Source: Trypanosoma brucei
Taxonomy: Eukaryota
Direction of reading: 5' to 3'
DNA: 64,000 bases
Assembly: GCA_000002445.1 (NCBI GenBank)
Contig: CM000208.1
Span: 320,001-384,000, forward strand
Shown here in pieces: positions 3,646 to 56,452 of this stretch. How positions within the stretch are numbered: the first letter of the stretch is position 1; the number at the start of each line of letters is the position of its first letter. The notes beneath the pieces are model-generated. The model was not told where the DNA came from, ran no database searches, and saw nothing but the letters and a program-made list of their open reading frames with translations. The position numbers and the translations under genes were made by a program.

Positions 3646-5727
3646 TCACACTGACCCCAGCTCTTCCGCCCACTTTTCAAACTGTTTGATTGAGCTCTGT
3701 GAAACAGAAGGTTGGATTTTCTTCAGAGCATCCTCAAAGTCATTCATTGTAACTGGGGAAACAATCATCTTGCCTCCCTCCTTCATCGCAGCGATCTCTG
3801 CCGGTGATCTGTCCGCGATTAACCTTCGCATTGGCATCATTGCGGCGTCACGAACAACTAGGTTCATGTCTGCGCCGCTAAATCCTTCCGTTCTTTTATC
3901 GGATATCTCCTCCAGATCAACAGAGGGGTCCAAAGACAAAGTAGCTGTTTGTTTCTTGAGTAAACTCAGTCGTCCAGCTTTATCCGGAAGAGGTATATAA
4001 ATGCGCTTTTCCAGCCTGCGGCGCATGGCCTCATCCAAATCCCATGGACGATTTGTAGTTGCGAGAACCAGCACGCGTTTATCATTTTCAGTGCACAATC
4101 CATCAAATTGCTGAAGCATCTCACTCTTAATACGTCGGCTCGCTTCATGTTCGTTTCCACCTCGAGCAGACATTAAAGCGTCAACTTCATCAAAAAATAT
4201 TGTTGATGGTGCGTAATGGCGCGCAAGATGGAACAGTGACCGCACAATCTTCTCGCTCTCGCCAAAATACTTGCTAATAAGGGACGAGGCGCTGATGTTG
4301 AAGAAGGTCGTTTTGGCGCTTGTAGCCACAGCTCGAGCAAGCATCGTTTTCCCTGTCCCAGGAGGACCAAACAATAGGACACCCTTCCAAGGTTGCACAA
4401 CCCCAGTGAAGAGCTCCGGTACCAACAGTGGTAATATTATGGCTTCCTTCAGTAAACGCTTAGCTTCGGGGATGCCGGCTATGTCATCCCACTCGACGTT
4501 GGGAGACCGTTCAATTATCTCTGCTTCAATGCGTTCAAGTAATTCAGGAGCAATACCTGGAGGAGCACAGGGTGCAACTGAGTTCAACACCTTATCTTTT
4601 GGTACTGCCTTATCAACCACTTTCCCCTTACGATTAGAAACCTTGTCAGGAAACGCTGCCTTTCCACTGGAGCAAAGGGGCTCCTCTTCCACTATTGGGA
4701 TACCCTTCTTGTTTGTGTCACTCTTCTTGGGAGACAAAGTAAACGGTGGTGGCCTACCGTACAGTTTGTTTGCCGGGGGTTTGTGTCCTTCTACTACGGC
4801 AACCTCTCTCACCGATATCTTTCCACCCGTCGCAAGAAGTATGGGAAGCGATTCACCCAACCGAACTCCAGGAGCGTGGAGGGTTGGGCAGACAACCTCA
4901 CCGTTGATTGATAAACTAAAATGCTCAGATGATACCAGCAACGTTATGGTTACGCGCTCTCTGATCAACCGGAGGGTCTTCATGGGTTCCAATAGTTCAA
5001 GTCGCTCAAACGTGTCTTGCTCCGTCATTCGCCACTTTTCCACCGAAAGAAAAATACCACCAGAGGAATCATAATGGACCAAAGCCACACAAAACCCCTG
5101 TCTCTCGTCTCCCGCCCTGGGAGTTATTCCCATACCAAACATTGCATACCGTCCTTGACTTACCAAGCTTTGGATTTGCGCAGTAAAGCAAGCGATGTTT
5201 TTGCCCTGTGGAAGAGGCGCTACCGTTCGAAGCGCCAACAGATCATTGCAGTGAATTTTCGTGTTCTGAGCATAGTGGACTTCTTCACATATAAAAAGTA
5301 TGTTCGATCCCATTGCATTTTGCCTCTGAATGCGGCCACCTGAGCACATCAAAGTCCATCCAGGTACACGATCGCTGGGTTGTTGGAGACGCACCGGCAT
5401 ATTCGGAATACAAGATTCTTCGTCCAGCGGGTTTACCCAAGGGGGTCGGTCCGTGTAGTCGCCAAACTGAGAAAATGTCCAACCAGTGGTGCTCCTGACT
5501 TGTTGGGACCGTGGTACTGTGGGCATGATACCCTCACGCAACAGGGCATTGCGCTTACCGTTGCGGGGAAAACTTCGAACCGTTCCATGACTTGGAGCAT
5601 TTCTAGAAAATCGGTTAAACGCATCTTGGGTCCGTTTGCTTTGAAGAGAGGAGTAAATTGCCTTTTGAAGCCCCACGTCGTCGTCCATTGGTAAAAACCC
5701 TTTGCAGCCGCAGTTTATCAGCACCAC
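3646..5727 (-). CDS. Meiotic-clade AAA ATPase (katanin p60 / spastin / fidgetin-like microtubule-severing family)
   Basis: 693-aa ORF with Walker A GPPGTGKT. It also has Walker B IFFDEVDAL, sensor ATTNRPWDLDEAMRRR and a Vps4_C-like tail. The long N-terminal region is non-catalytic. Confidence 0.8.
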   Translation of the reverse strand: MVLINCGCKGFLPMDDDVGLQKAIYSSLQSKRTQDAFNRFSRNAPSHGTVRSFPRNGKRNALLREGIMPTVPRSQQVRSTTGWTFSQFGDYTDRPPWVNPLDEESCIPNMPVRLQQPSDRVPGWTLMCSGGRIQRQNAMGSNILFICEEVHYAQNTKIHCNDLLALRTVAPLPQGKNIACFTAQIQSLVSQGRYAMFGMGITPRAGDERQGFCVALVHYDSSGGIFLSVEKWRMTEQDTFERLELLEPMKTLRLIRERVTITLLVSSEHFSLSINGEVVCPTLHAPGVRLGESLPILLATGGKISVREVAVVEGHKPPANKLYGRPPPFTLSPKKSDTNKKGIPIVEEEPLCSSGKAAFPDKVSNRKGKVVDKAVPKDKVLNSVAPCAPPGIAPELLERIEAEIIERSPNVEWDDIAGIPEAKRLLKEAIILPLLVPELFTGVVQPWKGVLLFGPPGTGKTMLARAVATSAKTTFFNISASSLISKYFGESEKIVRSLFHLARHYAPSTIFFDEVDALMSARGGNEHEASRRIKSEMLQQFDGLCTENDKRVLVLATTNRPWDLDEAMRRRLEKRIYIPLPDKAGRLSLLKKQTATLSLDPSVDLEEISDKRTEGFSGADMNLVVRDAAMMPMRRLIADRSPAEIAAMKEGGKMIVSPVTMNDFEDALKKIQPSVSQSSIKQFEKWAEELGSV

Positions 5728-5869
5728 AATAACAAACTTTTCGTGGGCAAAAGCAATCAGATTGCCGTAACTCTACGGGCGCTTTATGTATATATATACT
5801 ACAGTTCTCCCTTTACAAGTTACCAAAATGCAGATAAAGCAAATGGAACTCTTTAAAACTGGAATAACA

Positions 5870-6075
5870 AACTAACAATAAATAACTGCCTTCCCTCCTG
5901 AATCGGCAAAAAACAATTCGAAGGACTGGGGACAAGACAAAGTGAGCAACCAATACGTTCCAAAATAACAATAATTAAAGTAGTTCAAAAATAAAGTTAG
6001 AGAACAAACTGTAAACAATAAGTAGATGCACGTTCCCTCAATCAAGAAAAAAGGAAAACAATGCACAGTAACGTT
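5870..6075 (-). promoter_or_regulatory. Polypyrimidine-rich tract on the transcribed (minus) strand upstream of the AAA ATPase gene. Candidate spliced-leader acceptor and upstream polyadenylation signal region.
   Basis: The plus strand is A/G-rich here, so the minus strand is T/C-rich. This is the arrangement kinetoplastid trans-splicing uses. Confidence 0.35.
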
Positions 6076-7299
6076 AGAAAATAAACAATTCCTCCCTGTG
6101 TCACGAAACTGACCTGCATGGGTAAATCATTACATAGAGGTAACTACTTATTGGACCCGTCCCACTACGTAGTTATGCTGGAGAGGAAAGGATTGGGGCT
6201 CCGATCTCGGGAAACGGCACGTGCTCTATACATCTCTTCCTCCAAATAGATAGAAGTTAATAGAACATGCAAGCAGACAGCAGATGAGCGGAGAACTCAA
6301 AAGAAACTTCAAGCTAAATTGGATACTCGTACAATTTTGCAGCAGAAAACAAAATCCATTGATGTCAAAAAAAAAGCGACTGGAAAATGCTGTAGAGGCA
6401 ACCAACAACTGGCGGTGCTAACAATGAAAACGCCATCCCACATCAAAACATCAGACATCAGCCATATGCTAGAGCGATGAAAAAAGTGAAGACCTATATG
6501 ACCTCAACCCGAGGTATTGAATGAAAACTGTTGTCCGCAGCAGCCGCAACACACAATAAGGGTTTCCCACAAACAAACCCCATGAGACATAATATCTGCA
6601 ACATCAAGACAAAAGAAAAATCGTTCAAACAGCAATTTGAAAACAACGTAGTGAACGCGGGTGAAGGTACTCGTTAATGCGCATAGGGCATGCTGCGGTT
6701 CGATTTTTGAACACAAGCGGGTATAGCCATTCTCAGCCGCCACCACTTGGAGAGGCAAACACTCACGTCCGCAACGAAATCGTCCAACTAACAAGGACTG
6801 TACCTTAAACTGACGATGCCTTCGGCTACGGCAGTGGGGTTGCTGTGAGCACAGTAATCGTTGTTCCCTGCTCGGCAATAGAACCAGCTGATGTCCCCCG
6901 TAACACATTTAGAGTTGCATCGGAAAGAGCGCAGTGCAAAGCCACCGAGGGCTACATGTGAGACCTCCCGCTTCACAAATATCATAGTAATACATGCAGA
7001 AATAGCCATCAGCACCGTCGGTGACGATCAACAACAAGCGGTCTCCGACCTCTTCTCTCCGCACCTTTACGCCGAACATCACTATCGCAGAGATTGTCGG
7101 AGAACACTCTCGAGGTGCTGACCAGAACCACGGCAAACCAAAAAAGTTTCCGTTCATAAAACCCGACCCCTACCCTGCGACCATGATGAACAGTGGGCCC
7201 ATTCACAGCACGTCAGCATTGCACCTAGTTTATAAACACTGATCGCACTTTGAGGACCCTGGGCGACTACACCAAGTTACTTACAACGGCCAATCACAA

Positions 7300-8700
7300 C
7301 AATGTGGAAAGGGACCAGGCATCCGTTAAAAGCGTCTATCCCATCCAACTGTTGGTCACCTCTCGTGACGCCGACGGCGCGGCCCGTCAAGGCGGTGAGA
7401 ACGGTACGGCGTAAGAGGGTGAGCCCCCGTCAAAAAGGAAAACCAAAACCGCCACCAACGCCGCAAAGCCAGATGCAGCGCGGCCCCACGACAAACAATG
7501 CTTCGACCCTTCCCAAATCAAGCCCCGGATATACGAATTTGGGATAACCGGTGGCCGAACGCATACCAAGAGAACCGGGCCGCCCCGTCGACGGGGCGGC
7601 CATCGCGTGGACCCACCCGGCCTCGCACGAAGAAACCGGTTACAACCGGGGGGAGCGGAAGAGTTGATGAGTCAGATCCCGGGGAGTAAGGACGGCGTTC
7701 GTTCCTTTCGGTGGCCGTAACGCCTGGGGTGAAGGCTGTGCTCTGCCTTGTGAAGCAGCAGGGGGCTCGGCAGCCCCTGCGCTTCAGGGAGGCGTTCCTC
7801 TTCGCAGAGGATGCGGTAGTGCACAAGATTCGCGAGGAGCGTAGCTTTCCCCGCACAGGAGCGCCGTGTTCGCCGAAATAGGGCACCCAGCTCGCAAAAG
7901 TGTCCGAACTTTTTTCCAACCGCTCACCCCCCACCCTTAATCCAGGGCTTTCTGGGGGGTGTGGCAACCTCTGCTGTCCAGGAAGGTGACCGAAACATAG
8001 GAGGGAAAGCGCCACCGGGGTGCGTCCGCGAAGGTAATCAGAAGTGTACCTGAAAAATGTGAGGGGGACAAGGGGAAGTCTTGGCCCTTTCGATCCACGC
8101 TTTCTCCGGGAGCGCCGCGAATAGGTGTGTTGTCACTTTCGCGCCACTTCAAGGCCGCCTGAGGCCGGCGGGACCGCCGAGAGCTTTTAAACCGCCTCCG
8201 AGCTCTACTAGGGGGGGGGGGGTGGGCTGACGGTGAGATCGTGGTGCGGGTCGTATATGCCTGTCTTTCTCCCTGAGGAACGCGCTGTGGAGTGTTAACG
8301 AAGGAAATAGGAATACCTCTGTCGCGTATGTGATTGGTATGAAAGGCGGTGGCGAGAACAGCGGGATGAGATGTCATAACAGCTCCTTTCCGCTTCGGAA
8401 ATGCTTTGCTTTTGTCAGTGCTCAACTCCGATACCGCACCCGAGTAATGGCCTTCTCCCCCTTGTAGGGCGGCAAACGCCCAGCTACAGCGCAAGCACTG
8501 AGTACCCTCCCAAAGTACACTCGATCGTACGCCGCTTTCAACTACTTCAAAGGACGGAGGAAGCAGCCCAACCGTTAAGAATACCCCTCAGACCACCACA
8601 TCTGCGCGGTCAGCGACGGGCGGTACACAGATGAAACCGCTATTAGAGTCGGACCAAGCTAAGGGTGCCAAACCATCACGGTGTCAGAGTACCGGCATTG
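7300..8700. other. GC-rich island with no coding signal, inside a 6.7-kb ORF-free interval. It contains a G12 run at 8211-8222.
   Basis: Visibly higher G+C than the flanks. Only short ORFs overlapping in shifting frames on both strands. Confidence 0.4.
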
Positions 8701-11700
8701 CTCACCGTAGGGGTAATGGTGTTTCTAGATTAGTATCGAACAGACGAGTTTCCCATGACGATTTCCATTTTCCGAAGCAGACTCCAAAAACGCCTGCAGG
8801 CATGGGAACTTCTGCAGATGGTGGAAAGGATGCGCTTGAGATTGGGGTCCCAAGAGACTTCGACGCAGCAGTCCACGAGAGGAAAGTGCCAAAAAGGATT
8901 GTTGTGGCACCGTTCTCCACAGCCATTGTGGTTTCCTTGAAGCAGAGAAGTGCCGCGATGTTGGGCACGGAGCGCAGCCGGCGACCACTGCGGCGGCACA
9001 GAAATTCTTTTCACAATTGATTTAATTCATTGCCCCTGCTGTGAAGTCAAAGGCGGGAATTTCCGGAAGTAAACCAGATCATCGCGGTAGAAACTTTATC
9101 CTCGAATTTTCTTTCATCCCGCCGCCCAGCATTTTCCCCGTCAGCTTTGGCATACTGTCAGTTGGCTTCGCGGGTAGAAACAGCGCTGTCCCACTGGCGT
9201 TTTTGGTTGGATTCGGCAACGGCGCGGTGATACTATGCACATGTTTCTTTTGCTCTTTTCCAAACCGCATGAGCAGGTTAGGAGGCTGCGGCAGATGCCG
9301 CAACCCGCTCACCTACAGCTTCTTCGGTTCTCTCCCAAACGATTCTTCTTCCCCAGTTTCCACACCGCTGGAGCACCCCGTAAATGACGGCCCACGGTTA
9401 GATATTTACAATAGTTTTAAACATGCGGTCTGTAATTCCAGAAACTCAATACATTTTTGTGAGTGAATGTGTTGAGTGTTCCTTTGCGAGAGGGCTGTGC
9501 ATATGTGCCCGCCCTTGTATGCATCGGCTGCCTCTTTGGAAGGCGGTAACCACTAACAACCAGATTCCAAGTGGTTAACAGATACGGCGCGAATACCAAC
9601 TTTAGCAGCCTCCAACATTCCCCCCCCCCCCTGATGATGAATGGTTTTGAAGCCCCATATCCTCATTCCCGCACAACTGTTTCATTCGACACCTTCTTCA
9701 TTAGTACAATGAGGTCCACCCCCTTGATGTTTATGCGCCTCATGATTCTTCCGGGCGCCGCGGCTCCGCACCCCTTCCTCCTAGTAACTGCTTGAGCCGC
9801 AATTTGGCAAATAAAATGTGCAATGGCATCATTGAGATATTCTCCTCTCTTCAACAACTTTCTCACGTGTGGCACGGTACTCTGTCGCGCTCCGCCTCCA
9901 AATGTCGGTCAAACGACCACCCTCCACGAATACGATAGCCTCTAAGGCTTTCAACGTACAAATCTCCCTGTCATTCCCAAGTGTTGCATCGCAAGGGATC
10001 CAACTGCAACTGCTTCCAGAGTTCCTCAAAGCTTTCCATATTGTTATCTCAGAGTGTTTAAAGCAGATCACATAAGACGGGGGGAACTCTCCTTTAACTG
10101 ATCTTTATCGTATTAGGGCTCTTCTGTTGGCAACTGAAAATGCCTGTTCCATACATTCGCCAGTTATCAACTTAACATCCTTCTTCTGCGCAACGGTTCC
10201 GGCTTTTCCATGACTCCATTAGAGCCGTTTTATATTTGAGGGTGGGGAAGTAGGTTGATGTGACCTTGGGCTGCTCCTCATCCGAAAGCCCAAGCGGAGT
10301 TACCATGCTTTCTGGAGTTCCTTCTGTTTTCGATTCCTCAACAACGGACGCTCCACCACGAATAGACGCAGACGAGCTGCCGGCACCCATGTTGGAGGGG
10401 GTCGTTTGTAGGCTTTGATAAATGTAGAATGTTGGTAGTCAGCTTCCCCTAATTGTTATGGATGTCTCCCTTGAGGGCGCCAAAAGCCCACCATGTTTTA
10501 ATGAGCCATCCTCAAAAGGGACAACCTTTTGCCATCCGAGGCACCGCCCGTGTTTCGTTGTTCACAGTGAAATGGAAATTTCCCTACCTTGCAGTTGGTA
10601 TATCACTTGAAGGGTGAGAGGCGGTTACGGGCATCGCTTGTGACGAAACGCTTGGCAACGTTTCAAGTGCTGGGGGCGCGGCTTTGCATCATGCTTCTTT
10701 CCTCGTCTCAGCAATGTATGCCGCAGGAACCGCCCCGCATTCTGTGCAATGTCGAAAGTGTGGGGTCGGGTGGTAATGACGTGGTGATGGTTTTTGACGG
10801 TGGAGCCATGGCATTTGCTGGCGAACATAATCCCCATTGCACTGTTAGAAGGTTCACATCAAATATACCAATGAGAGCAGAAACCCTCAAGAGGATGAAG
10901 TGCAGAAAGGCGGCCCGAAAATCTCCGCCCCCGCTCGCTTCTGAAAAGGAGGGTTTTGCCACTCAACAGCAATTGAGCCTCATGTTTTCAGTGGAACGTG
11001 GGGGAGCAGAAAAGGAGGTTTGAAAAGTATCAAAGGCCAGAGCGGTTGGCTCGTAACGGCTGCTGCGGATGCTGAGGTTTTGGAGGGTCTATTATTGAAT
11101 TGTGATGGAGTAACTGAAGGGGTATGAACATTCAAAATGACGCTGGGAGGGTTTGCTAAGCTTTACGATACAAACGGTAAGTGTGGGTGCGACCCGACCG
11201 TTTGGACTACTTTCACGGAGCGTACATCATGCTAGGGGAGTGATTTTTTTTTTTTTTTACGAAAGGGTTTGTTTTTCTCGATCACGATCCAAGGTTATTT
11301 TTCATACCTCCCCATGCATTTCCCCAATTCGAAGCTTGGCATTGCAATTTCCTGGGTCTATTTTTGGGACTGGAAGTGGCTGTTTCCTTGTGTTGTGAAA
11401 AGGATGGGGGACGCGACGTATCAAGTGGTAGTCAGTGACCCCCCCCCCCAAAGCCCTCTTTTAGTGTCAACGGCAGAAAAACAAACTATAACTTCATGGA
11501 CGTTAGCAACATTGGCAATGCGTTAGGCTAAAAAGAAGTTGCCGTTACGCCTCATTGATGTAAAAACACAATGAAACGGTTCTGTTTGCGTACGTGTGTG
11601 TGTGCCCGCTTGTGTTTGGTAGGCGATTTTTTTTTTTTGTAGAGTGATCGTCAGACCACTGACCGGTGCGTGCCATTGGACAGCTTCATAGCCGTTATTT

Positions 11701-12413
11701 CAATTGGAAGCGCGCCTTGCTTTATAGCGCAAAGACTACAAATAGCGGTAGAGCCGCTGCCGCGGTGCTCGCCATCATGCGCATAGGCGATTGGAATGTG
11801 TAATGTCAGTCATTCCACCGATCCAGAGTTCCCTTTCCCCTTCTTTTACACTCCCTTCGGGCCCAAGTTTCCTTCCAACCGAACAAACCGGTGTTTGTGT
11901 TGCGTTATTGGTGCCCCTTATCGGTGTTGAGGTTTTTTTTTTCTCCGACTGACCTAGCTGGGGCAGCAACTGTTGTTTTACTTCAAGGGGCCGTTTGCTG
12001 CGCTGCCCCGTCCTCACACTAACGAAAAAAAAACGGGTTTTGTGGCAAGAATGGAAATAGAAGAGGGCACCTCTCAAAACTGGCGGAACCAGCACAAAGT
12101 GAAACGCATGGTGTTAAACTACGCACGCACGCCAAACAGCAGGAGATAAATGCGAAACGACCTTCACATATTGCGCGGATATTTATGAGGGCGCGTGCCT
12201 GGTAAATGGTTTCCGCAGACAACTTACACACTCGGCAGCAACTTAGCTTTCACTCTTAGTAAGGTGAAATGGGTCCTCTCCAACCTCCCCTTTACCCCTT
12301 CGCGCATACGCTCGAAAACAGTTCCGTCTCCCGCTAGCGCCACAGAAACGATGTCCCCCTAGCGACAACCACGCGCATTCTCCACGACCACTGTTTTTTC
12401 AACCACATCTTTT

Positions 12414-13508
12414 TTACACAGAAAGAGTGGTTGCCCACACGGCAGACCCGGACGCGCGGAAAATGACGTTGACGATCCACTCTAGCACCGTAACGGGGAA
12501 GAGGAGCAAATTAAGTGGAAAGGGTAGTGAAAAACCGTTCGCGGCTTGCCATGTGAATCCGATGACGGCGAGGCCGAAAGCGAATGCCTTCACCCAACTA
12601 TCATCGACCTTCACATCCTGTACCACGATTCCTCTTGTTTTGGCCAACTCGAGGGCACTATCCACAAGCATTTTTGAGCCTCGTGTGGCGCAGTGCAGGG
12701 TGATGGTGTATTGGCTCGCAAGCACGGCAATGGTTGTGCCTAGGGCTCCAAAAAGGAAGTTGGAAAAGGGGCCTGCAAGTTTCTGTAGCTCCGGTGGCAG
12801 CGACTCTTCGAGGATGGCTTTAAGTGGGAAAAAACGTGGGGCTGTATCTGCGAGAATACAACCCAGTGTGACGTAATAGGCGAAGCGATCCCGCAACGCT
12901 GCCACAACCGCCATGAATGCCAGGGCAACCGCAGCGAGTTCCTCCTTCACACTGACGGGGTCGACAGATTGCAGAAAGATACGTAACTTGCGCGAGAGCA
13001 GTTCATTCTTCGAGAGACTTTCGTCGCCTGTGGTAACAGTGTAACCATAGCCCGGGGCGTCATCTTTCCTACTGGCCTCCATCGCCGCGACGTAATTCCG
13101 GTGAATAACCTCGGCACTCTTTTTAATGCGATCCCAGCTGGTGAGGTAAACGATTTCCACGGTTGAAAACAGCGTGAAGAAGCAACCCCCAAAGAAACAA
13201 ATGGAAAAACCAGCGATGAGAGGGAGTATTTGGTTCAACTCGTGGGAAGACAGGGACTTAGCGTAGTCCATAAACCTGACGAACAGGGCCTCCACAAACG
13301 GGTAGAGAACGTCAAGAGCCCTCAGAATAGCCTGCGTCAGAGATTTTGCGCCCCCTATCAACGCTGTTTGCTTGGGAAACTGCCGCTCCAGGGCAGCGAA
13401 AAAGTATTCCATGGGTCCCTCCAGGCACCTTTCTTCCGCCATGTTCCTCTCTCTGTTGTTTTTTTTTCTTTTTGCTTCAACCCACTTGTGTTCGTCAGAG
13501 ACACCCAC
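12414..13508 (-). CDS. Hypothetical multi-pass membrane protein
   Basis: 364-aa ORF with at least five hydrophobic helices, e.g. LPLIAGFSICFFGGCFFTLF, LAAVALAFMAVVAAL and AFAFGLAVIGFTW. No family assignment. Confidence 0.4.
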   Translation of the reverse strand: MGVSDEHKWVEAKRKKNNRERNMAEERCLEGPMEYFFAALERQFPKQTALIGGAKSLTQAILRALDVLYPFVEALFVRFMDYAKSLSSHELNQILPLIAGFSICFFGGCFFTLFSTVEIVYLTSWDRIKKSAEVIHRNYVAAMEASRKDDAPGYGYTVTTGDESLSKNELLSRKLRIFLQSVDPVSVKEELAAVALAFMAVVAALRDRFAYYVTLGCILADTAPRFFPLKAILEESLPPELQKLAGPFSNFLFGALGTTIAVLASQYTITLHCATRGSKMLVDSALELAKTRGIVVQDVKVDDSWVKAFAFGLAVIGFTWQAANGFSLPFPLNLLLFPVTVLEWIVNVIFRASGSAVWATTLSV

Positions 13509-41481: not shown

Positions 41482-44445
41482 TTATGACATAGCCATCCAT
41501 AGTTGTAGCCAGGACTGATTCATGTTTTTACGCCAGTCCCGCAGGGTATACCGCCAGTCAGAGGGTTCTGACACCACGACCGCATCCCCAGCGCTATCCA
41601 CGTAGCGAAGGGAAAGTTCCTCAGCGCCTACTTGTTCGTCATCATCAATATCAAGTGGAAACAACAGGACGTGGTCAAGACCATTGGCCTTTAGCGCTTC
41701 CTTCACTCTCCAAACGATGCCTCTAAGCCGTGTGCGCCGACGGATGGGCTTCAGAGCAACACTCATCGGAAGTGCAAGTAAACCATCGCACACGTCTGAC
41801 ACAATGGACGTTCTGCTGCAAGAGACATCAATGTCGCTCCGTACTATGTAAAGAGATATTGGTATGGTGTATATCGCCGTATTCATTCCTCGGCTTGGGT
41901 CCCCTACCGAGCTGCTATAACTACAGCTCATGCTCCTTCCGTCCGAGTTCCGAAAATCCAACCTCAAGGGCGGGTGCGCCGCGAACTCGGCGCGGCGGGC
42001 GGCCACAGCAGCGGCATCTGCCGCCATGCGAACAATCTCCGCCGCGAGCTTGCTCGGTTGAAGTACCGTACTTTCTGGGCGGTGCGGCTTACAACATGAA
42101 AGTTCCGCCAATTTATCGATGGTTTTCGTAACAGCTGTGGAATCGTGTGAAAAGTTCCCCGACTCAAACCTTAGCCCCGTTACTTGGGCCAGCTGGCACG
42201 GTGCCCGCGTCATTTGCAGTTCATCAGGAGGGTAAGGAAATTGATCAGCGCGGCTGCTGCCCCCTTGAGCAAACATATGGCGACATTTCTCGGTGTAAGA
42301 CCTTGCATACAGCTCGTTCAACTCTGCACGTAGCCGCTTGCTTTCTTCTTCACGGGCTTTCTGGGCTTCGCGCACTGCCCTAAGTTTGCGCTGCCGACGC
42401 AAGTAACTGAAGTATATCTTTTTGCGCAGGATGGCCTCTAAGGTTTGTGTAGAATATCCTCGGCAGCGACCGACTAACATATGCGGTCCTCCTGAATTTT
42501 CGCACTCTTTATCAGCCTCCCCTTCCATTTCCTGTCGTTTCGCAGTCCGATTCGCTTCCAAAGTGATAACGCACTCCGTGGTCCGTGATTTCTCAGTTAA
42601 TGACGATGCCATCGGGCTCTGCGACACCTCCAATAACCTTGCCTCCAGCAACTCAGACATTGATTTGGATCCCGCGTCGACACCACTGAGTGGCTCAGCA
42701 AACAGAGCTAGCTGCCCCATAACTGACAGGCCATCCGACACACGACTGCGCCGAAGGCCTGGTGTAGAGTTCCTGTGTTTATGGGGCGATGACACAAGCG
42801 TGAAGTTCTCCCCGTCTTTCCAATCCACACGCACAACTTCACCATCGTAGCCCTCGCACAGACTCAACCTGGAAAAAGCCTCCGCATGGCGTAGCCATGG
42901 TATTCGGGAAATCTTTGCATTTATCATCTCTTGAGTGAAGGTATCAAACGCGTCTGTGCCACCTGGGTCTGCAATGTCGCTGGCGGCACCCTGACTTGTT
43001 ACGGGTCGCGAAGACGCAGGAGTTGAGTAGCCCGATCGCTCCGATATGTGGAGTACATCATATCGTCGCTCCACGGGCATTAGGCTGCTAACCAGCTCCT
43101 CGTATGAGCCTGCTACCCGGCTTGCAAGTGGCGATGACGTTGTCGGAATAGCTGCTGCGAGGGGAAATATATCGTCCATTTCCCCACCGCTTCCTATTCG
43201 ACAACATAAGCGGTTGACTCTGTTGGTTTGAGTAGCGATACCGTTGGTGGCCCATAAGTCACAAACCTCTGCTGCTGAAAGCCGCGATGGAGGGGGCGTT
43301 GCCGCAGGCGTAGGGCAACGAGAAGGGTTGAAAATAAAAAACTCGCGAAGTAATTGCGCCGCTGAAGGGCGTTCCATCGGATCCATGACAAGCATCCGCT
43401 CCACCAAAACAACCACAAGCTGATGCAGAGTTTTTTCTTGTCGAGTAAAAGCATCGCCGTATTGTGATTCCAACAAATGCAGTTGTTTTGGTGTAAAAGT
43501 GTGCTCACAATGCAGCGCCTCTCTGTCGTATTGCCCTTCTGTAACGACATGAATTTGAGCGAGCACATTGTCAGCAGCAAATGGGAGTTTCATGCAGTAA
43601 AGTTCGTAAGTAAGTACCCCAAGTGCCCATATATCAGCCCCAAACGAATATGGCTCACCAAGACAGAGCTCTGGACAAAGGTAAAACGGTGTGCCGATGA
43701 AGGTAACAAGCTTTGGATCCGTAGGGCTGACGACCTTGCTAACACCAAAGTCACCGATCTTCACCACATCGCTCTCCGTCAGGTACACATTAGCCGGCTT
43801 CACGTCACGGTGAATGATGCCACACTCATGTAGGTGAGCGAGCCCATCAAGGCATTGCCGAACCAAATCCACAATGCGGAAGGATTCAATCCATTGCTGA
43901 TGCTCTTCGCTGGGAGACTTATCCCCCCTAGATGTAGTCTTCCATGCATTCCGGCGCCCACTGGATCTCGACCCACAACGCATGGATGCATCTCCTCCAC
44001 CGCTACAGACACTCCTCCGTTTCTCGTTGGAGCCGGATCTACTCCCACAAACCCCACTGCCGCGAAGAAGCAAAGATAGGTCGCCCCCTGCCATGTACTC
44101 AGTAACGAGGCAAAGCTGCTGTTCATCATCCACAAAGCTGTCGACGTACTGCAGAACGTTTGTATGTCGTAAGTTCTTGAGAATGGCAACCTCGTTCATC
44201 GCATGGGCAACCTCGTCGTCGGAGATGGCTTTCAATTGTATTACCTTTACCGCGACCAACTGTCCGTACCACTCACTCCCCGGAAGCGTGTCGTGGCTGA
44301 GAAAAACACTACCGAAGCTTCCACTGCCGATCTGTTGGCCACGTGGAAAACGCCTCCATCCTGAGAGATGATGGCTTTGAGCTCCATTGCCCATTTGTGG
44401 AGTGGATTGAGTGGTACACGCATCCCAAGGGGCTCGGCTTGTCAT
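41482..44445 (-). CDS. Ser/Thr protein kinase, NEK-like, with a ~75-aa insert in the catalytic domain and a long C-terminal tail
   Basis: 987-aa ORF with GSGSFGSV, VAVK, HRDVKPANV, DFGVSK and GTPFYLCPE (NEK-type GTPxYxSPE). Confidence 0.8.
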   Translation of the reverse strand: MTSRAPWDACTTQSTPQMGNGAQSHHLSGWRRFPRGQQIGSGSFGSVFLSHDTLPGSEWYGQLVAVKVIQLKAISDDEVAHAMNEVAILKNLRHTNVLQYVDSFVDDEQQLCLVTEYMAGGDLSLLLRGSGVCGSRSGSNEKRRSVCSGGGDASMRCGSRSSGRRNAWKTTSRGDKSPSEEHQQWIESFRIVDLVRQCLDGLAHLHECGIIHRDVKPANVYLTESDVVKIGDFGVSKVVSPTDPKLVTFIGTPFYLCPELCLGEPYSFGADIWALGVLTYELYCMKLPFAADNVLAQIHVVTEGQYDREALHCEHTFTPKQLHLLESQYGDAFTRQEKTLHQLVVVLVERMLVMDPMERPSAAQLLREFFIFNPSRCPTPAATPPPSRLSAAEVCDLWATNGIATQTNRVNRLCCRIGSGGEMDDIFPLAAAIPTTSSPLASRVAGSYEELVSSLMPVERRYDVLHISERSGYSTPASSRPVTSQGAASDIADPGGTDAFDTFTQEMINAKISRIPWLRHAEAFSRLSLCEGYDGEVVRVDWKDGENFTLVSSPHKHRNSTPGLRRSRVSDGLSVMGQLALFAEPLSGVDAGSKSMSELLEARLLEVSQSPMASSLTEKSRTTECVITLEANRTAKRQEMEGEADKECENSGGPHMLVGRCRGYSTQTLEAILRKKIYFSYLRRQRKLRAVREAQKAREEESKRLRAELNELYARSYTEKCRHMFAQGGSSRADQFPYPPDELQMTRAPCQLAQVTGLRFESGNFSHDSTAVTKTIDKLAELSCCKPHRPESTVLQPSKLAAEIVRMAADAAAVAARRAEFAAHPPLRLDFRNSDGRSMSCSYSSSVGDPSRGMNTAIYTIPISLYIVRSDIDVSCSRTSIVSDVCDGLLALPMSVALKPIRRRTRLRGIVWRVKEALKANGLDHVLLFPLDIDDDEQVGAEELSLRYVDSAGDAVVVSEPSDWRYTLRDWRKNMNQSWLQLWMAMS

Positions 44446-51031: not shown

Positions 51032-52423
51032 TTAGTAGTCGTCGCCCTTAGAAAGGATTTCCTTTGCGGTAGGTTTCAAAATAAGAGTATGCTCCAGTTG
51101 AGCAGTGTAGCAGCCACGTATGTCACAGAGGGGTGGGTATTTGTTCACTGCACCAGCCTCCACCAACTGGTTCAAATTCAGCAGATGCCTGTCGTGCCCG
51201 TCACGGTCCAACCACTTTCTCGCGAAGGCCAGCGTGTTGTATGTTTTATGAATGTGCCTTAGCAACTGCTGCGCCTTGTCCGAACGTACCTGTGTCTTTT
51301 CGCCCCCTGGTACCATCATGTAATGCGAGCATTCCATGTCCTCCTGCACGAACCCACGACCAGTGGAGCCGAATGTCTCGATAGCGAACAACTCGCCTTC
51401 TTCCATGCGTGTCGCCTCTCCACCACGTACAATCGGCACCGACTTTCCCCCATGAATGACATATGGCGCAATGGTATGCCCCGAGAGGTTTCGTATACTC
51501 TTCACGGGGTACACCTTCCCATTCAGTTCCACTTCATAGGACTCCATTACCTCCTGAATTGCCGCCCCAACATCACACAGTCGTACATCGATGCCAGCCT
51601 GCTTAACACCCTCATATGTCGCCTCCTTAACCGCGGTAAGCAAAGGCTCGTACTCGTCCTTGAAAGCAACCGTCCAGGCGCAGTCAATAATTCTACCGTT
51701 AATCTGAGTCCCAAAGTCCACTTTCATAACATCGTCATACATCAACACGCATTTATCACCAGTGTTCGGTGTGTAATGAGCAGCGACGTGATTGAGCGAG
51801 CAACCTGTTGGAAACGCCTGACCGCGATTAAGGCCATCCTTCTCAATAAGTTCCTCCAGCTTCTTTTCAATGCGGTCAGTCATGCTGAGGAGAGAAATAC
51901 CGGGCTTTATGAAGCTTTGGGCGTAGCGGCGCACCTGTCGATGCACTTCGGCCGCACACCGCAGGTCCTGCACCTGTTCCTCAGTCGCGTGCTCCATTGC
52001 ACGTTTCTCCTCGCTGCTGTAGCGGTACGCATTAACCTCACCAGGATGCTCACAAATGATACCGACAGGAAAATTGCCCCTCGCAAACTGCTGACTGACG
52101 GGAATAGTCGGTTCCGGCCACGTCTGCCGCTTCATTCCTTCCGCCACTTGTGGGTACGGGTTGTCGGGGTGGTCAGCGGTGCTGACAACCTTCGGGTCGC
52201 TGGCGTCATTGTTGTCATTCGCTTCCCCATTGCTCTCCTGCTTACTCGTTCGTTGCTTTCCTTTTTGTGCCTTTTTGTTAGCGTCACCACCTTGTTTGTC
52301 TTTGCTCACTTGAACCTCTTGCAACGCTTTGGCCAGTTGTGCATCGAAATCAGCTTCATCATCCTTGCATTTCTTACCGCCCTGTTGCTTCTTTGAGCCC
52401 GCTCCCCCGCCTTTAGGTGGCAT
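51032..52423 (-). CDS. Methionine aminopeptidase 2
   Basis: 463-aa ORF with the Lys-rich N-terminal block typical of MetAP2. It also has the pita-bread fold signatures (FPTGCSLNHVAAHYTP, the D...D...H...E...E metal ligands context, NLSGHTIAPYVIHGGKSVP). Confidence 0.85.
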   Translation of the reverse strand: MPPKGGGAGSKKQQGGKKCKDDEADFDAQLAKALQEVQVSKDKQGGDANKKAQKGKQRTSKQESNGEANDNNDASDPKVVSTADHPDNPYPQVAEGMKRQTWPEPTIPVSQQFARGNFPVGIICEHPGEVNAYRYSSEEKRAMEHATEEQVQDLRCAAEVHRQVRRYAQSFIKPGISLLSMTDRIEKKLEELIEKDGLNRGQAFPTGCSLNHVAAHYTPNTGDKCVLMYDDVMKVDFGTQINGRIIDCAWTVAFKDEYEPLLTAVKEATYEGVKQAGIDVRLCDVGAAIQEVMESYEVELNGKVYPVKSIRNLSGHTIAPYVIHGGKSVPIVRGGEATRMEEGELFAIETFGSTGRGFVQEDMECSHYMMVPGGEKTQVRSDKAQQLLRHIHKTYNTLAFARKWLDRDGHDRHLLNLNQLVEAGAVNKYPPLCDIRGCYTAQLEHTLILKPTAKEILSKGDDY

Positions 52424-53462
52424 GCACGCGGTCCTTTTCCTCTTTGGAATGTGCTGAGCCAGTGTCGCCGTGTAGTCGGCAGTTTATGTGTGGAGTAAAG
52501 CATTACAAAGAAAGTAGAAAGAAAGAAAAAGTGCGAGGTAATGCACATACACACAAAACTGATGAATATAAAACTAAATCGCGCGGGACTGGGTTTTTTA
52601 TCGGCAACAATGCAAAAGCAAAATGTCAAAGAGCGGAGAGCATACGGTGAAGACAAGGCGGCAACCACACGATGTGCACACACTGACACATAGTATGGAT
52701 CGCTCAACATGCGCATACAAAAAAAGAGGAAGAAAGAAAGAAAGATAGAGAGAGAGCAACCAAACAAAACCAAATAAAAGAAGATGGGGCGACATATAAA
52801 TATACTCAAAAGCTGCACACCCCGATCCTTTTCCCTCTCCATATCGGAGACATTTAGTGGCATCGCTCGCATCCTTCACAAGCACATACGCCGCACACGA
52901 GAGTTTTCAGTGTTTCCCTACCCACAAACACGTATATTGGAGGGTAACAGAGGAAAGATTGTTCTTATCCGTTTATTTAAATCCCCAGTATCACCACGGT
53001 CGGTCTCCCTTCCTGTGGTTTTTGCCCGGGTAGTAAGAGAGGGAAAGGGAAAGAGGTAGTGAAAATATTCAGCGTTGGACTGAAGTACATAGGTAAAGAA
53101 AGAGAGGAAGAAGAGCAGTTGAGGGACATTCGTGAATTTCCCACGCTTTTTCATTCCCTTCCCTCCCATCCGTGTACCCCACCCCCATTCGTTACTATTA
53201 TTGCCGTTTCTCCGTGACTTCTCGTTGGCCGGAATATATTCATATTTTTAAAAACCTAATGCACCTGACATTTTGTTTTTTGTTTACCTTTTCCACAGCG
53301 TCTTTAACGACACCCCTTCTTTCCTGTTTTTCTCTTGCCCATTCTTCATGATCTCGCTTAGCCCCGGTATAAATAAAGCAACAAGAAACAAGTAAAAAAA
53401 ACTAGCAATAACAATACCAGACAGTACTGATGGTACAAGAAGGAAAATTCATTGAACTTTAT

Positions 53463-55584: not shown

Positions 55585-55956
55585 GGAGTTTATTCGCTAG
55601 CTATATCCACCTCTAGTGCACTCGTACGGCACACGCATACACACACAAAGGCAATCGCGTTTCTTTGGCTTATTTTGCTTCGCTACCCCTCCACTCTGAA
55701 AAAAAAAATATTCCACCTTCCTTGCGACACAGCTTCCTGTATCTCCAAGTGCTTTCCCTTTTCCACTGCTACAGCCACTTACACCTGATCTGTGAAAAAG
55801 AGAAAAAAAAACTACAACACTAATCCAGAGCCCCGTGGCGCAACAAGTCCGTGCGGTTAGAAGAAAATAAAGAAATGGGTGAAGGGAAAAGTCAATAACT
55901 CTTGAACACCTTTGGAGTCCGAATTGCGCAACAAACATTAACCGGGTTTCTATCCT

Positions 55957-55972
55957 TCCCCCCCCCCCCCCC
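55957..55972. repeat. C16 homopolymer (G16 on the transcribed strand)
   Basis: cttcccccccccccccccctc in the intergenic region upstream of the twin-Cx9C gene. Confidence 0.9.
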
Positions 55973-56452
55973 TCAATGCATATAGCGGGGGGAGTTCGGA
56001 GTCTCCTTAAACAAGCAAAGTAACTGAATGCCACTGAAATTATCCATAATAGGGGCAAATGTTCATATATGAGAGAAGCAATTAAAAAAGGCACAATAGA
56101 AAGCGCAATAAACGAGAAGACACGTTGCCGCAAGAACACCCCGCTGACACGAAACCAAACGGCAACTATACATCCAACCAGTGTGAAACCACACCAGATC
56201 AGATATATATGTCTACAGATACACAACAACACAAGTTGGGTACAAGTCCTTCAATTTCTCTCTGCCGTTGTGAAAGGTCAGTCCGCATATTTCATTATAA
56301 CAGCAACGTCGGTCGCGTCGTCACGTGGAAGGGATGGTCCGTGTGGTAGAAAGTAGGAAACCATGACCCGCAACCGCGGGAAAGGAAGTGCAGAAAACAA
56401 CCCATAATAACAACGTCTGCCACCGCTTGCTTATGAAAATGGAACCCACGGT

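What the first reader, a model, noticed from the sequence alone, without database searches (positions are those of the whole stretch)
7300..8700. GC-rich island with a G12 tract and possible RNA-like structure
Base composition changes sharply to GC-rich for about 1.4 kb (for example ...ggccgccccgtcgacggggcggccatcgcgtggacccacccggcctcgcacg...). That stretch holds self-complementary segments such as ccgtcgacgg and ggccgccccg/cggggcggcc. The G12 run at 8211-8222 is followed by tgggctg, which gives G-quadruplex potential. An island like this is atypical for trypanosomatid intergenic DNA, which is usually AT- and homopolymer-rich. It could be a structured ncRNA, a fossil of a sequence with foreign composition, or the core of a decayed element.
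Basis: seen in the sequence. Interest (0 to 1): 0.55.

Follow-up and report, generated by a model that had tools for sequence, protein, structure and literature searches.

The report
GC-rich core of a trypanosome promoter region
The GC-rich island is real, but it is not an RNA gene or foreign DNA: it sits in a published internal RNA polymerase II transcription start region of Trypanosoma brucei chromosome 10, so it is an ordinary, known kind of feature.

Summary
The window is T. brucei TREU927 chromosome 10, 320,001-384,000. Window 7300-8700 is 58.8% GC, against 45.7% for other non-coding DNA. G12 sits at 8211-8222, and there is a unique 24-nt perfect palindrome at 7578-7601.

- There is no Rfam hit and no excess folding energy.
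- Divergence between strains is neutral.
- No protein domain or homologue was found.
- No plasmid or phage similarity was found.
- The G-run differs in every strain.

The island lies in the 6.7-kb spacer where one polycistronic unit ends and the next begins. Kolev et al. 2010 list the island's own ORF, Tb10.70.6870, as first ORF of an "Internal" Pol II unit. The spacer's strand composition flips at about 7600, as at a divergent start region.

A 565-bp core (7810-8377) has a second copy exactly at the strand-composition switch of the HDAC1 divergent start region. T. theileri has an unalignable GC-rich island (57% against 31%) at the syntenic spot. The known 55-kb TREU927/gambiense inversion flips exactly this transcription unit.

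Verdict: GC-rich core of a bidirectional Pol II start region. The site is already catalogued, so interest is low to moderate.

The parts
5689..12413 (-). 6.7-kb spacer between the last gene of the upstream polycistronic unit (342-aa gene, inferred to be Tb10.70.6830, at 12414-13442) and katanin (3646-5688). It is the head-to-tail boundary between two Pol II transcription units.
   Evidence: It holds no ORF of 200 aa or more. It is 5-25 times longer than most other intergenic regions in the window. Kolev 2010 Table S14 ends one unit at Tb10.70.6830 and starts the next, typed 'Internal', at Tb10.70.6870. The coordinate offset of 320,000 is fixed by two genes.
7300..8700 (.). GC-rich island (chr10 327,300-328,700 in assembly v4), proposed compositional core of the internal transcription start region.
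   Evidence: 58.8% GC against 45.7% for non-coding background. A syntenic GC-rich island exists in T. theileri.
5700..7600 (-). Arm that is G+T-rich on the minus (coding) strand, 55-64%, leading into katanin. 7300-7600 is its GC-rich part.
   Evidence: Keto-skew profile. AT skew is +0.4 to +0.5 and GC skew is negative on the + strand. This matches the G/T-rich coding strand reported for T. brucei start regions (Wedel 2017).
7578..7601 (.). Perfect 24-nt palindrome GGCCGCCCCGTCGACGGGGCGGCC, at the point where strand composition flips.
   Evidence: It is identical in TREU927, T. b. equiperdum, T. b. gambiense and T. equiperdum OVI. As single-stranded DNA the 61-nt stretch 7560-7620 around it folds at -16.7 kcal/mol into a 10-bp stem with a 4-nt loop.
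7600..8400 (+). Arm that is G-rich or G+T-rich on the plus (non-coding) strand, taken to be the antisense arm of a bidirectional start region.
   Evidence: GC skew is +0.04 to +0.33 on the + strand, against a window norm of about -0.07. GT(+) is 0.51-0.58.
8211..8226 (+). G12 run plus TGGG: a homopolymer of the kind typical of start regions, a canonical quadruplex motif, and hypervariable.
   Evidence: Alleles: G12 in TREU927, GGGGTGGGTGGG in T. b. equiperdum, an 8-nt deletion in T. b. gambiense, and a 3-nt deletion plus a G-to-T change in the HDAC1 copy. The T. equiperdum OVI contig ends inside it. GGGGGGGGGG is the 10-mer most enriched in the 5' fifth of T. brucei start regions (132 on the coding strand, 17 on the non-coding strand).
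7810..8377 (.). Duplicated core of about 565 bp. A second copy lies 1.37 kb upstream of HDAC1 (DAC1), in the divergent strand-switch region where the upstream unit starts.
   Evidence: 96% identity over 568 aligned columns in T. b. gambiense (L004, L012) and T. b. equiperdum (L011). The ORF part is about 99% identical. In that strand-switch region the keto-skew switch falls inside the copy.
7937..8377 (-). Annotated ORF Tb10.70.6870 (146 aa, XP_822380.1). It is almost certainly not a protein gene. It serves as the 'first annotated ORF' of the internal unit in the literature.
   Evidence: Exact match. The T. b. gambiense paralogue at the HDAC1 strand-switch region is annotated 'hypothetical protein, unlikely'. 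No homologue outside one Trypanozoon cluster. The frame is broken in 2 of 5 copies. No Pfam domain.
9458..10574 (.). 1113-bp segment that occurs as an inverted repeat at both ends of the 55-kb inversion separating TREU927 from T. b. gambiense and T. b. equiperdum. It marks the edge of the transcription unit that the island heads.
   Evidence: The inversion at 275-330 kb is published (Jackson 2010).
9620..9631 (-). G12 on the coding (minus) strand, upstream of the island in the direction of transcription.
   Evidence: It is G8 in T. b. equiperdum.
11439..11456 (-). G11 run and quadruplex motif on the coding (minus) strand.
11230..12018 (-). Published novel transcript Tb10.NT.7 (788 nt, 0.65 RNA per cell), the last processed RNA of the upstream unit.
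   Evidence: Kolev 2010 Table S7 gives coordinates 332018-331230, converted with the 320,000 offset.

Best explanation
The island is the GC-rich core of an internal (head-to-tail) RNA polymerase II transcription start region. It heads the polycistronic unit that runs from Tb10.70.6870 and katanin to the serine carboxypeptidase genes (Tb10.70.7100).

Proposed mechanism. Stiff homopolymer runs and GC-rich, strand-asymmetric sequence disfavour canonical nucleosomes and favour H2A.Z-type open chromatin. Pol II then starts over a broad zone in both directions. Productive sense transcription runs leftwards on the minus strand, through the G+T-rich arm (7600 down to 5700) into katanin. Weaker antisense transcription runs rightwards from the G-rich arm (7600-8400, with the G12).

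What is shown:
- the compositional anatomy;
- the published assignment of a unit start at this ORF;
- the second copy of the core at the skew switch of a bona fide divergent start region;
- a GC-rich island at the syntenic position in T. theileri.

What is inferred:
- that the island, rather than another part of the 6.7-kb spacer, is where initiation is centred;
- the nucleosome and H2A.Z mechanism, taken from Wedel 2017;
- any role for the palindrome or for a quadruplex.
For: (1) The window is TREU927 chr10 320,001-384,000. Kolev et al. 2010 Table S14, built from 5'-triphosphate RNA-seq, lists 'Tb10.70.6870 -> Tb10.70.7100, minus strand, Internal' as a Pol II unit, and ends the preceding unit at Tb10.70.6830. 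Tb10.70.6870 is the ORF at 7937-8377, inside the island. The same paper reports that all such sites are bidirectional and broad, and compares them with mammalian CpG promoters.
(2) Strand composition flips at about 7600. The minus strand is G+T-rich from 5700 to 7600. The plus strand tends to be G+T-rich from 7600 to about 12100, and some of the most GT(+)-rich stretches of the 64 kb lie there.
(3) Three of the six G/C runs of 9 nt or more, and two of the three quadruplex motifs of the window, lie in this spacer. G10 is the hallmark 10-mer of T. brucei start regions, and G4s are reported enriched at start sites in T. brucei chromatin.
(4) The 565-bp core recurs, in two independent assemblies, exactly at the skew switch of the HDAC1 divergent start region. 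There its G-rich strand is the HDAC1 coding strand.
(5) T. theileri has the same gene order, with a spacer 4-7 times longer than its neighbours. That spacer holds an island of 57% GC against an intergenic mean of 31% (sd 7). All 12 top GC windows of the 21-kb locus lie in the island, and 3 of the locus's 4 quadruplex motifs lie in that spacer (one of them inside the island). Yet there is no alignable similarity to T. brucei.
(6) The 55-kb inversion flips exactly this unit together with the island. That is expected to be tolerated if the unit carries its own promoter.
Against: - The published table resolves the start only to 'upstream of or around Tb10.70.6870'. I could not view read or ChIP profiles, so initiation could be centred elsewhere in the spacer, for example near the coding-strand G-runs at 9620 or 11439.
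- The island's own G12 is on the non-coding strand. Start-region G-runs are mostly on the coding strand (132 against 17).
- The G-run is hypervariable, and the quadruplex motif is lost in T. b. gambiense.
- Divergence within T. brucei is neutral, so there is no sign of base-by-base constraint.
- GC-richness as such is not an established defining property of T. brucei start regions.
- The T. theileri island abuts an assembly gap.
Confidence: 0.7

Rival explanations
1. Neutral patchwork. The spacer is a rearrangement-prone junction that has accumulated segmental duplications (the 565-bp core and the 1.1-kb inverted repeat). The GC-rich island is functionless filler, and its composition is a by-product, for example of biased gene conversion between paralogous copies.
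For: Divergence between strains equals or exceeds that of other non-coding DNA. The G-run is hypervariable. There are no homologues, domains or RNA-family hits. The spacer adjoins an inversion breakpoint. The ORF part of the two copies is about 99% identical, which is compatible with recent conversion.
Against: It does not explain why the unrelated species T. theileri has a GC-rich island at the same syntenic position. It does not explain why the published unit boundary falls here, or why the second copy sits exactly at the skew switch of a divergent start region.
Confidence: 0.15
2. Relic of a mobile element or of foreign (horizontally acquired or viral) DNA. The 565-bp repeat would be the remnant of a once multi-copy element.
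For: The composition is unlike surrounding intergenic DNA. At least two copies of a 565-bp piece exist. An Illumina contig breaks inside it.
Against: No reverse transcriptase, endonuclease or other Pfam domain in six frames of 6400-9100. No poly(A) tail or target-site duplication at the copy's edges. No internal or terminal repeats. No plasmid or phage similarity. Only one protein cluster of four members exists for the ORF, where a multi-copy element should give many. I could not search the full T. brucei genome at the DNA level, so copy number is a lower bound.
Confidence: 0.05
3. A structured non-coding RNA gene lies in the island.
For: Local hairpins exist: the 24-nt palindrome, and windows at 7680-7860 on the minus strand with z-scores of -3.5 and -2.7. 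The region is transcribed as part of a Pol II unit.
Against: No Rfam match. No tRNA. The island-wide z-score of -0.3 is the same as in the flanks, and equally low z-scores occur outside the island. Divergence is neutral. There is no alignable conservation in T. theileri.
Confidence: 0.03
4. Tb10.70.6870 is a real Trypanozoon-specific protein-coding gene, and the GC-richness reflects coding sequence.
For: It is annotated in TREU927 and T. b. equiperdum. The ORFs of 165 and 185 codons on the sense strand are somewhat longer than chance predicts for this composition; this is my own estimate, not a tool result. It is not listed among ORFs without a transcript in Kolev Table S2.
Against: The T. b. 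gambiense paralogue at the HDAC1 strand-switch region is annotated 'hypothetical protein, unlikely'. The frame is broken by the poly-C length change in the T. b. gambiense katanin copy and in the T. b. equiperdum HDAC1 copy. There are no homologues in 5.8 billion or 1.84 billion protein sets beyond the protein itself. There is no Pfam domain. Hexamer coding scores fall between coding and non-coding values, with no consistent frame or strand. Two synonymous against two non-synonymous differences between paralogues is uninformative.
Confidence: 0.02

Closest known systems
T. brucei RNA polymerase II transcription start regions (dispersed, bidirectional 'GT-rich' promoters; Siegel 2009, Kolev 2010, Wedel 2017), specifically the internal or head-to-tail class
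   Same: It lies at a boundary between two same-strand polycistronic units and is listed as 'Internal' in Kolev Table S14. The spacer is long. It holds homopolymeric G runs and a G+T-rich coding strand leading into the first gene. Its two-armed strand asymmetry fits the reported bidirectional initiation.
   Different: The most conspicuous G-run of the island is on the non-coding strand. The island is defined by high GC (59-63%), which is not a stated property of these regions. It carries a unique perfect 24-nt palindrome at the skew switch. Part of it is a near-identical paralogue of another start region.
Mammalian CpG-island promoters
   Same: Both are broad, motif-poor, GC-rich, bidirectional and nucleosome-disfavouring. 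Kolev et al. draw this analogy themselves.
   Different: There is no CpG depletion in the surrounding genome, so CpG observed/expected is not elevated (0.98 against 0.96). The organism has no known cytosine-methylation logic. One promoter drives about 20 genes.
Divergent strand-switch regions of trypanosomatids (for example the HDAC1/DAC1 region between Tb10.70.6250 and Tb10.70.6220)
   Same: The same polarity switch in G+T content is seen, and the same 565-bp sequence sits at the switch.
   Different: Here there are no annotated genes on the antisense side. The nearest candidates are only an 'unlikely' 110-aa ORF and poly-T tracts on the plus strand.
G-quadruplex motifs at T. brucei transcription boundaries (G4 ChIP-seq, NAR 2026, PMC13316426)
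   Same: There is a canonical motif in the island and another in the spacer. G4s are reported enriched at transcription start and termination sites.
   Different: The motif is polymorphic and is absent from both T. b. gambiense copies, so any G4 here is dispensable.

Membership tests
T. brucei Pol II transcription start region (internal class) | Enrichment of 5'-triphosphate RNA ends, sense and antisense, at the site | tested here: met
   This was a literature look-up, not a re-analysis. Kolev 2010 Table S14 lists the unit Tb10.70.6870 -> Tb10.70.7100 (minus strand, 'Internal'). Tb10.70.6870 is the ORF at window 7937-8377. Resolution is to the first ORF only; I saw no read profile.
T. brucei Pol II transcription start region (internal class) | H2A.Z/H2B.V, H4K10ac and BDF3 chromatin peak | not testable with these tools
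   No ChIP-seq data are accessible. Kolev states that 5'-triphosphate enrichment was seen at all sites previously marked by these histones.
T. brucei Pol II transcription start region (internal class) | Position at a boundary between polycistronic units, with an unusually long spacer | tested here: met
   The spacer is 6.7 kb, against 0.2-2.4 kb for other intergenic regions.
T. brucei Pol II transcription start region (internal class) | Long G runs and G/T-rich 10-mers on the coding strand in the 5' part of the region | tested here: inconclusive
   Coding-strand G12 (9620) and G11 (11439) lie in the spacer, and the coding strand is G+T-rich over 5700-7600. The G12 of the island itself is on the non-coding strand.
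T. brucei Pol II transcription start region (internal class) | Promoter activity of the fragment in a reporter assay | not testable with these tools
   This needs the dual-luciferase assay of Wedel 2017 or a deletion experiment.
Structured ncRNA (any Rfam family) | Covariance-model match at or near the gathering score | tested here: not met
   There were 0 hits at gathering score in 64 kb. The best sub-threshold hits scored 16-19 bits against cut-offs of 45-75.
Structured ncRNA (any Rfam family) | Folding energy below composition-matched shuffles, and sequence constraint | tested here: not met
   Mean z-score is -0.3 inside the island, against -0.2 and 0.0 outside. Divergence is 1.5-1.6%, against 1.2-1.4% for other non-coding DNA.
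Non-LTR retroposon relic (ingi / RIME / DIRE type) | Reverse transcriptase or endonuclease remnants; poly(A) tail and target-site duplication; many copies | tested here: not met
   No Pfam domain in six frames of 6400-9100. There is no poly(A) tail or duplication at the edges of the 565-bp copy. Only two copies were seen. The rest of the spacer, and genome-wide copy number, were not tested.
Protein-coding gene | Intact reading frame across strains and detectable homologues | tested here: not met
   The frame is broken in 2 of 5 copies. There are no homologues.
Canonical G-quadruplex motif (G3+ N1-7, four tracts) | Four G-tracts present and conserved | tested here: inconclusive
   The motif is present in TREU927 and T. 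b. equiperdum and absent from both T. b. gambiense copies. Folding in vivo was not testable.

The most novel reading that the evidence does not exclude
GC-rich islands with a two-armed strand asymmetry would be the sequence-encoded cores of trypanosome Pol II promoters. Their position and composition, but not their sequence, would be maintained since the split of T. brucei and T. theileri. Core modules such as the 565-bp piece could be copied from one start region to another. Here that piece links the two start regions that bracket a single polycistronic unit. That would make a 'promoterless' genome's promoters recognisable from sequence alone.
Probability: 0.2. Interest if true: 0.6.

Novelty: already known. 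Interest (0 to 1): 0.3.

Why it matters
How RNA polymerase II chooses where to start in trypanosomes is still only partly understood. Start regions are usually described as broad, motif-poor and defined by chromatin.

This site is already catalogued as an internal start, so the finding itself is not new. The anatomy seen here adds three things:
- a sharply bounded GC-rich island with a strand-composition switch marked by a perfect palindrome;
- a near-identical 565-bp module shared with the divergent start region at the other end of the upstream unit;
- an unalignable but compositionally equivalent island at the same syntenic spot in T. theileri.

Together these give a concrete and cheap hypothesis about sequence determinants. 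It could be checked genome-wide with existing ChIP and 5'-triphosphate data.

The site also illustrates why the known 55-kb inversion between T. b. brucei and T. b. gambiense is tolerated: it flips one complete transcription unit with its own start region.

Tried and rejected
RNA and simple repeats:
- Rfam at gathering score on the whole window, and at E<=10 on 5700-12450, gave nothing.
- The tRNA scan found none.
- Tandem and dispersed repeat searches in the spacer found only the palindrome and a T15 run.

Protein-coding tests:
- Pfam on six frames of 6400-9100 gave nothing. My first attempts with raw DNA references failed on stop codons.
- I did not scan 9100-12413 against Pfam.
- The word-indexed homology search with the 146-aa ORF found only its own cluster.
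- The full HMMER search of 1.84 billion representatives with the 165-aa ORF found only itself.
- Hexamer coding-potential scoring, trained on the window's own genes, was weakly discriminating and showed no consistent frame.
- dN/dS between the paralogous ORFs had too few differences, 2 against 2.

Foreign origin:
- blastn against plasmids and phages gave no match.

Folding:
- The first sliding MFE z-score run timed out. The second found no island-specific signal.

Closer outgroups:
- The N-terminal katanin query returned only T. grayi, whose contig ends 337 bp upstream of katanin.
- TREU927 itself is not in the contig look-up.

Other dead ends:
- Guessing modern Tb927.10.xxxx identifiers for literature searches led nowhere.
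- The two 541-aa ORFs in the window are unrelated.
Full report
**Where the window comes from.** An exact-sequence look-up identifies the window as Trypanosoma brucei brucei TREU927 chromosome 10. Katanin (3649-5688, minus strand) is XP_822379.1. The ORF at 7940-8377 (minus strand) is XP_822380.1, 'hypothetical protein Tb10.70.6870'. Two genes with published v4 coordinates fix the offset at exactly 320,000. Tb10.70.6680 lies at 361482-364445, which is window 41482-44445. Tb10.70.6620 lies at 371032-372423, which is window 51032-52423. The island is therefore chr10 327,300-328,700. All long ORFs of the window are on the minus strand. They encode housekeeping proteins: PDCD2-like, a katanin-type AAA ATPase, a tRNA-editing domain protein, aspartyl-tRNA synthetase and a MutS homologue.

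**Checking the observation.**
- 7300-8700 is 58.8% GC and is the GC maximum of the window.
- The window mean is 49.6% and coding sequence is 51.6%, so against those the excess is modest. One coding stretch reaches 58.2%.
- Against the proper background of non-coding DNA the island is a clear outlier. That background is 45.7% overall. Its 500-bp windows average 46.6% (sd 3.9) and never exceed 53.4% outside the island, whereas the island peaks at 62.6%.
- G12 at 8211-8222 is exact. With the following TGGG it forms the only canonical quadruplex motif on the plus strand.
- The quoted self-complementary pieces are one perfect 24-nt palindrome at 7578-7601. It is unique in the window apart from (AT)n runs, and none of 200 block shuffles reached that length.

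*Structured RNA.* No Rfam family reaches its gathering score anywhere in the window. The permissive scan of the spacer gives only two chance-level hits. There are no tRNAs. Sliding-window folding against dinucleotide shuffles gives a mean z-score of -0.3 in the island on both strands. That is the same as in the flanks, and isolated low z-scores occur inside and outside the island alike.

*Coding sequence, or a fossil of one.* Six-frame Pfam finds nothing. The 146-aa ORF has no relatives beyond one four-member Trypanozoon cluster; its T. b. gambiense member, the paralogue at the HDAC1 strand-switch region, is annotated 'hypothetical protein, unlikely'. The 165-aa ORF finds only itself among 1.84 billion representatives. 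Hexamer scores show no consistent frame. The 146-aa frame is broken in two of the five copies available.

*Foreign or mobile DNA.* There is no plasmid or phage similarity. There are no terminal or internal repeats. The edges of the one extra copy show no poly(A) tail or target-site duplication. The island is present in T. b. equiperdum, T. b. gambiense and T. equiperdum OVI, so it is not a cloning artefact.

**No constraint within T. brucei.** Substitutions between TREU927 and T. b. equiperdum or T. b. gambiense run at 1.5-1.6% in the island. Other non-coding DNA shows 1.2-1.4%, and coding sequence 0.2-0.5%. The G-run is a hypervariable microsatellite:
- G12 in TREU927;
- GGGGTGGGTGGG in T. 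b. equiperdum;
- an 8-nt deletion in T. b. gambiense;
- a 3-nt deletion plus a G-to-T change in the paralogous copy.

An Illumina contig of T. equiperdum OVI ends inside the run. The quadruplex motif is lost in both T. b. gambiense copies.

**What the surroundings show.** The island sits in a 6.7-kb stretch with no long ORF. This stretch lies between a 342-aa conserved hypothetical gene (12414-13442) and katanin, and is much longer than the window's other intergenic regions.

Comparison with other assemblies revealed two duplications in this spacer.

*The inverted repeat.* Window 9458-10574 is present at both ends of a roughly 50-kb segment that is inverted in T. b. equiperdum and T. b. gambiense relative to TREU927. 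In T. b. equiperdum the two copies are a 1113-bp inverted repeat, 99% identical. This is the 55-kb inversion at 275-330 kb reported by Jackson et al. 2010. T. theileri has the TREU927 gene order at this junction.

*The 565-bp core.* Window 7810-8377, the part of the island holding the G-run and the annotated ORF, has a second copy 1.37 kb upstream of histone deacetylase 1. That copy lies in a divergent strand-switch region further along the chromosome and is present in both T. b. gambiense and the independently assembled T. b. equiperdum. Identity is 96% overall and about 99% over the ORF part.

**The literature settles the identity.** Kolev et al. 2010 mapped putative Pol II initiation sites with 5'-triphosphate-enriched RNA-seq. 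Their Table S14 lists, for chromosome 10, a unit 'Tb10.70.6870 -> Tb10.70.7100, minus strand, Internal'. It is preceded by a unit 'Tb10.70.6250 -> Tb10.70.6830, minus strand, Divergent'.

Tb10.70.6870 is the island's ORF. Tb10.70.6830 is, by inference, the 342-aa gene at 12414-13442. This follows from the consecutive GenBank accessions EAN77552 and EAN77553, and from Tb10.70.6810 having its poly(A) site at 334,991, which is window 14,991.

The island therefore lies at a head-to-tail boundary where one polycistronic unit ends and the next begins. The same paper reports that all such sites show sense and antisense 5'-triphosphate reads over broad regions, and likens them to mammalian CpG promoters. 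It also lists a novel processed transcript, Tb10.NT.7, at window 11230-12018 (minus strand). That places the end of the upstream unit to the right of the island.

The divergent region where the upstream unit starts lies between Tb10.70.6250 and Tb10.70.6220. The latter is DAC1 from my memory of the gene's old identifier, which I have not verified. This is most likely the HDAC1 region that holds the second 565-bp copy. If so, the two copies bracket a single unit.

**The anatomy fits a bidirectional start region.**
- From 5700 to 7600 the minus (coding) strand is G+T-rich (55-64%).
- From about 7600 to about 12100 the plus strand tends to be G+T-rich instead. Several of the most GT(+)-rich stretches of the whole window lie there.
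- The flip falls at the palindrome.
- Wedel et al. 2017 showed that G- and T-rich 10-mers mark the coding strand of T. brucei start regions. GGGGGGGGGG is by far the most enriched: 132 against 17 in the 5' fifth of 199 regions. They also showed that synthetic GT-rich elements drive directional transcription and H2A.Z deposition and are depleted of nucleosomes.
- Three of the window's six G/C runs of 9 nt or more lie in this spacer: G12 on the plus strand in the island, and G12 and G11 on the coding strand at 9620 and 11439. Two of the window's three quadruplex motifs lie there too.
- In the HDAC1 divergent region the G+T polarity switch falls inside the 565-bp copy, and its G-rich strand is the HDAC1 coding strand.

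**Positional conservation.** T. theileri has the same gene order. Its spacer between the orthologous gene and katanin is 2.3 kb, which is 4-7 times its neighbours. It contains an assembly gap followed by an island of 57% GC (L002 11961-12800). The genes of that locus are 36-47% GC, and its intergenic 300-bp windows average 31% (sd 7, maximum 47%). All twelve top GC windows of the 21-kb locus fall in this island. Three of the locus's four quadruplex motifs lie in this spacer, one of them inside the island. There is no alignable nucleotide similarity to T. brucei. What is shared is position and composition, not sequence. That fits a dispersed promoter better than an RNA or protein gene, and better than neutral filler.

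**Best explanation and its limits.** I conclude, with confidence of about 0.7, that the island is the GC-rich core of an internal, bidirectional Pol II transcription start region heading the katanin-to-carboxypeptidase unit.

Shown:
- the composition;
- the skew switch;
- the published unit start at the island's ORF;
- the paralogous copy at a divergent start region;
- the syntenic island in T. theileri;
- the coincidence of the inversion with the unit.

Inferred:
- that initiation is centred on the island rather than elsewhere in the spacer;
- the nucleosome-exclusion and H2A.Z mechanism;
- any role for the palindrome or a quadruplex.

Points against:
- the island's G12 is on the non-coding strand;
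- the G-run and its quadruplex motif are dispensable across strains;
- there is no base-level constraint;
- I could not inspect read or ChIP profiles.

The main rival, at 0.15, is that the island is functionless patchwork at a rearrangement-prone junction.

**Novelty.** The site is already catalogued as an internal Pol II start, and the inversion is published. The kind of feature and this particular instance are therefore both known. I found three details not described in the papers I read: the sharply bounded GC island with its palindrome at the skew switch, the 565-bp module shared between two start regions, and the compositional conservation in T. theileri. They are modest additions that suggest a cheap genome-wide test.

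Noticed in passing
window 9458-10574; L003 7806-8918; L001 12873-13984; L006 5125-6235: A 1113-bp segment is present as a 99%-identical inverted repeat at both ends of a roughly 50-kb segment that is inverted in T. b. equiperdum and T. b. gambiense relative to TREU927. This is the published chr10 275-330 kb inversion (Jackson 2010). It flips exactly the Pol II unit Tb10.70.6870 -> Tb10.70.7100. I could not check whether TREU927 also carries the second copy of the repeat, because it would lie outside the window.
   Followed up: yes
window 9620-9631 and 11439-11456: There are two further long homopolymers in the same spacer: C12 and C11 on the plus strand, which are G-runs on the coding strand. 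The second forms a quadruplex motif. The first is G8 in T. b. equiperdum, so these runs are also length-polymorphic.
   Followed up: partly
window 11230-12018 (-): The published novel transcript Tb10.NT.7 (788 nt, 0.65 RNA per cell, Kolev 2010 Table S7) maps here, between the last gene of the upstream unit and the island. It lies in a stretch that carries T15, T12 and T10 runs on the opposite (plus) strand.
   Followed up: partly
L007 position 1 (= window 8221); L010 position 1; L002 11685-11960: Three independent assemblies break in this spacer. The T. equiperdum OVI contig ends inside the G-run. The T. grayi contig ends 337 bp upstream of katanin. The T. theileri scaffold has an N gap next to its GC-rich island. 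This suggests that the region is generally hard to sequence or assemble.
   Followed up: partly
window 10691-11023 (+): A 110-aa plus-strand ORF is annotated in T. b. gambiense as 'hypothetical protein, unlikely' (CBH15061.1). It lies in the part of the spacer where the plus strand is G+T-rich, so it may mark the antisense arm of the start region rather than a gene.
   Followed up: no
window 55958-55972: A C15 run (G15 and a quadruplex motif on the coding strand) lies inside the mechanically listed ORF 55597-56232 (minus strand, 211 aa, GTG start). That ORF has the lowest GC of the listed genes (44.7%). The ORF may be spurious, or the run may sit in an untranslated region.
   Followed up: no
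window 51323-52396 (+) overlapping 51032-52423 (-): A 357-aa plus-strand ORF lies entirely inside the methionine aminopeptidase 2 gene (Tb10.70.6620), on the opposite strand. It coincides with one of the most GT(+)-rich stretches of the window (52100-52500). It is probably a chance antisense ORF.
   Followed up: no
L004 8935-9080 (T. b. gambiense HDAC1 strand-switch region): A long (AC)n microsatellite of about 145 bp lies between HDAC1 and the 565-bp copy, inside the divergent start region.
   Followed up: no
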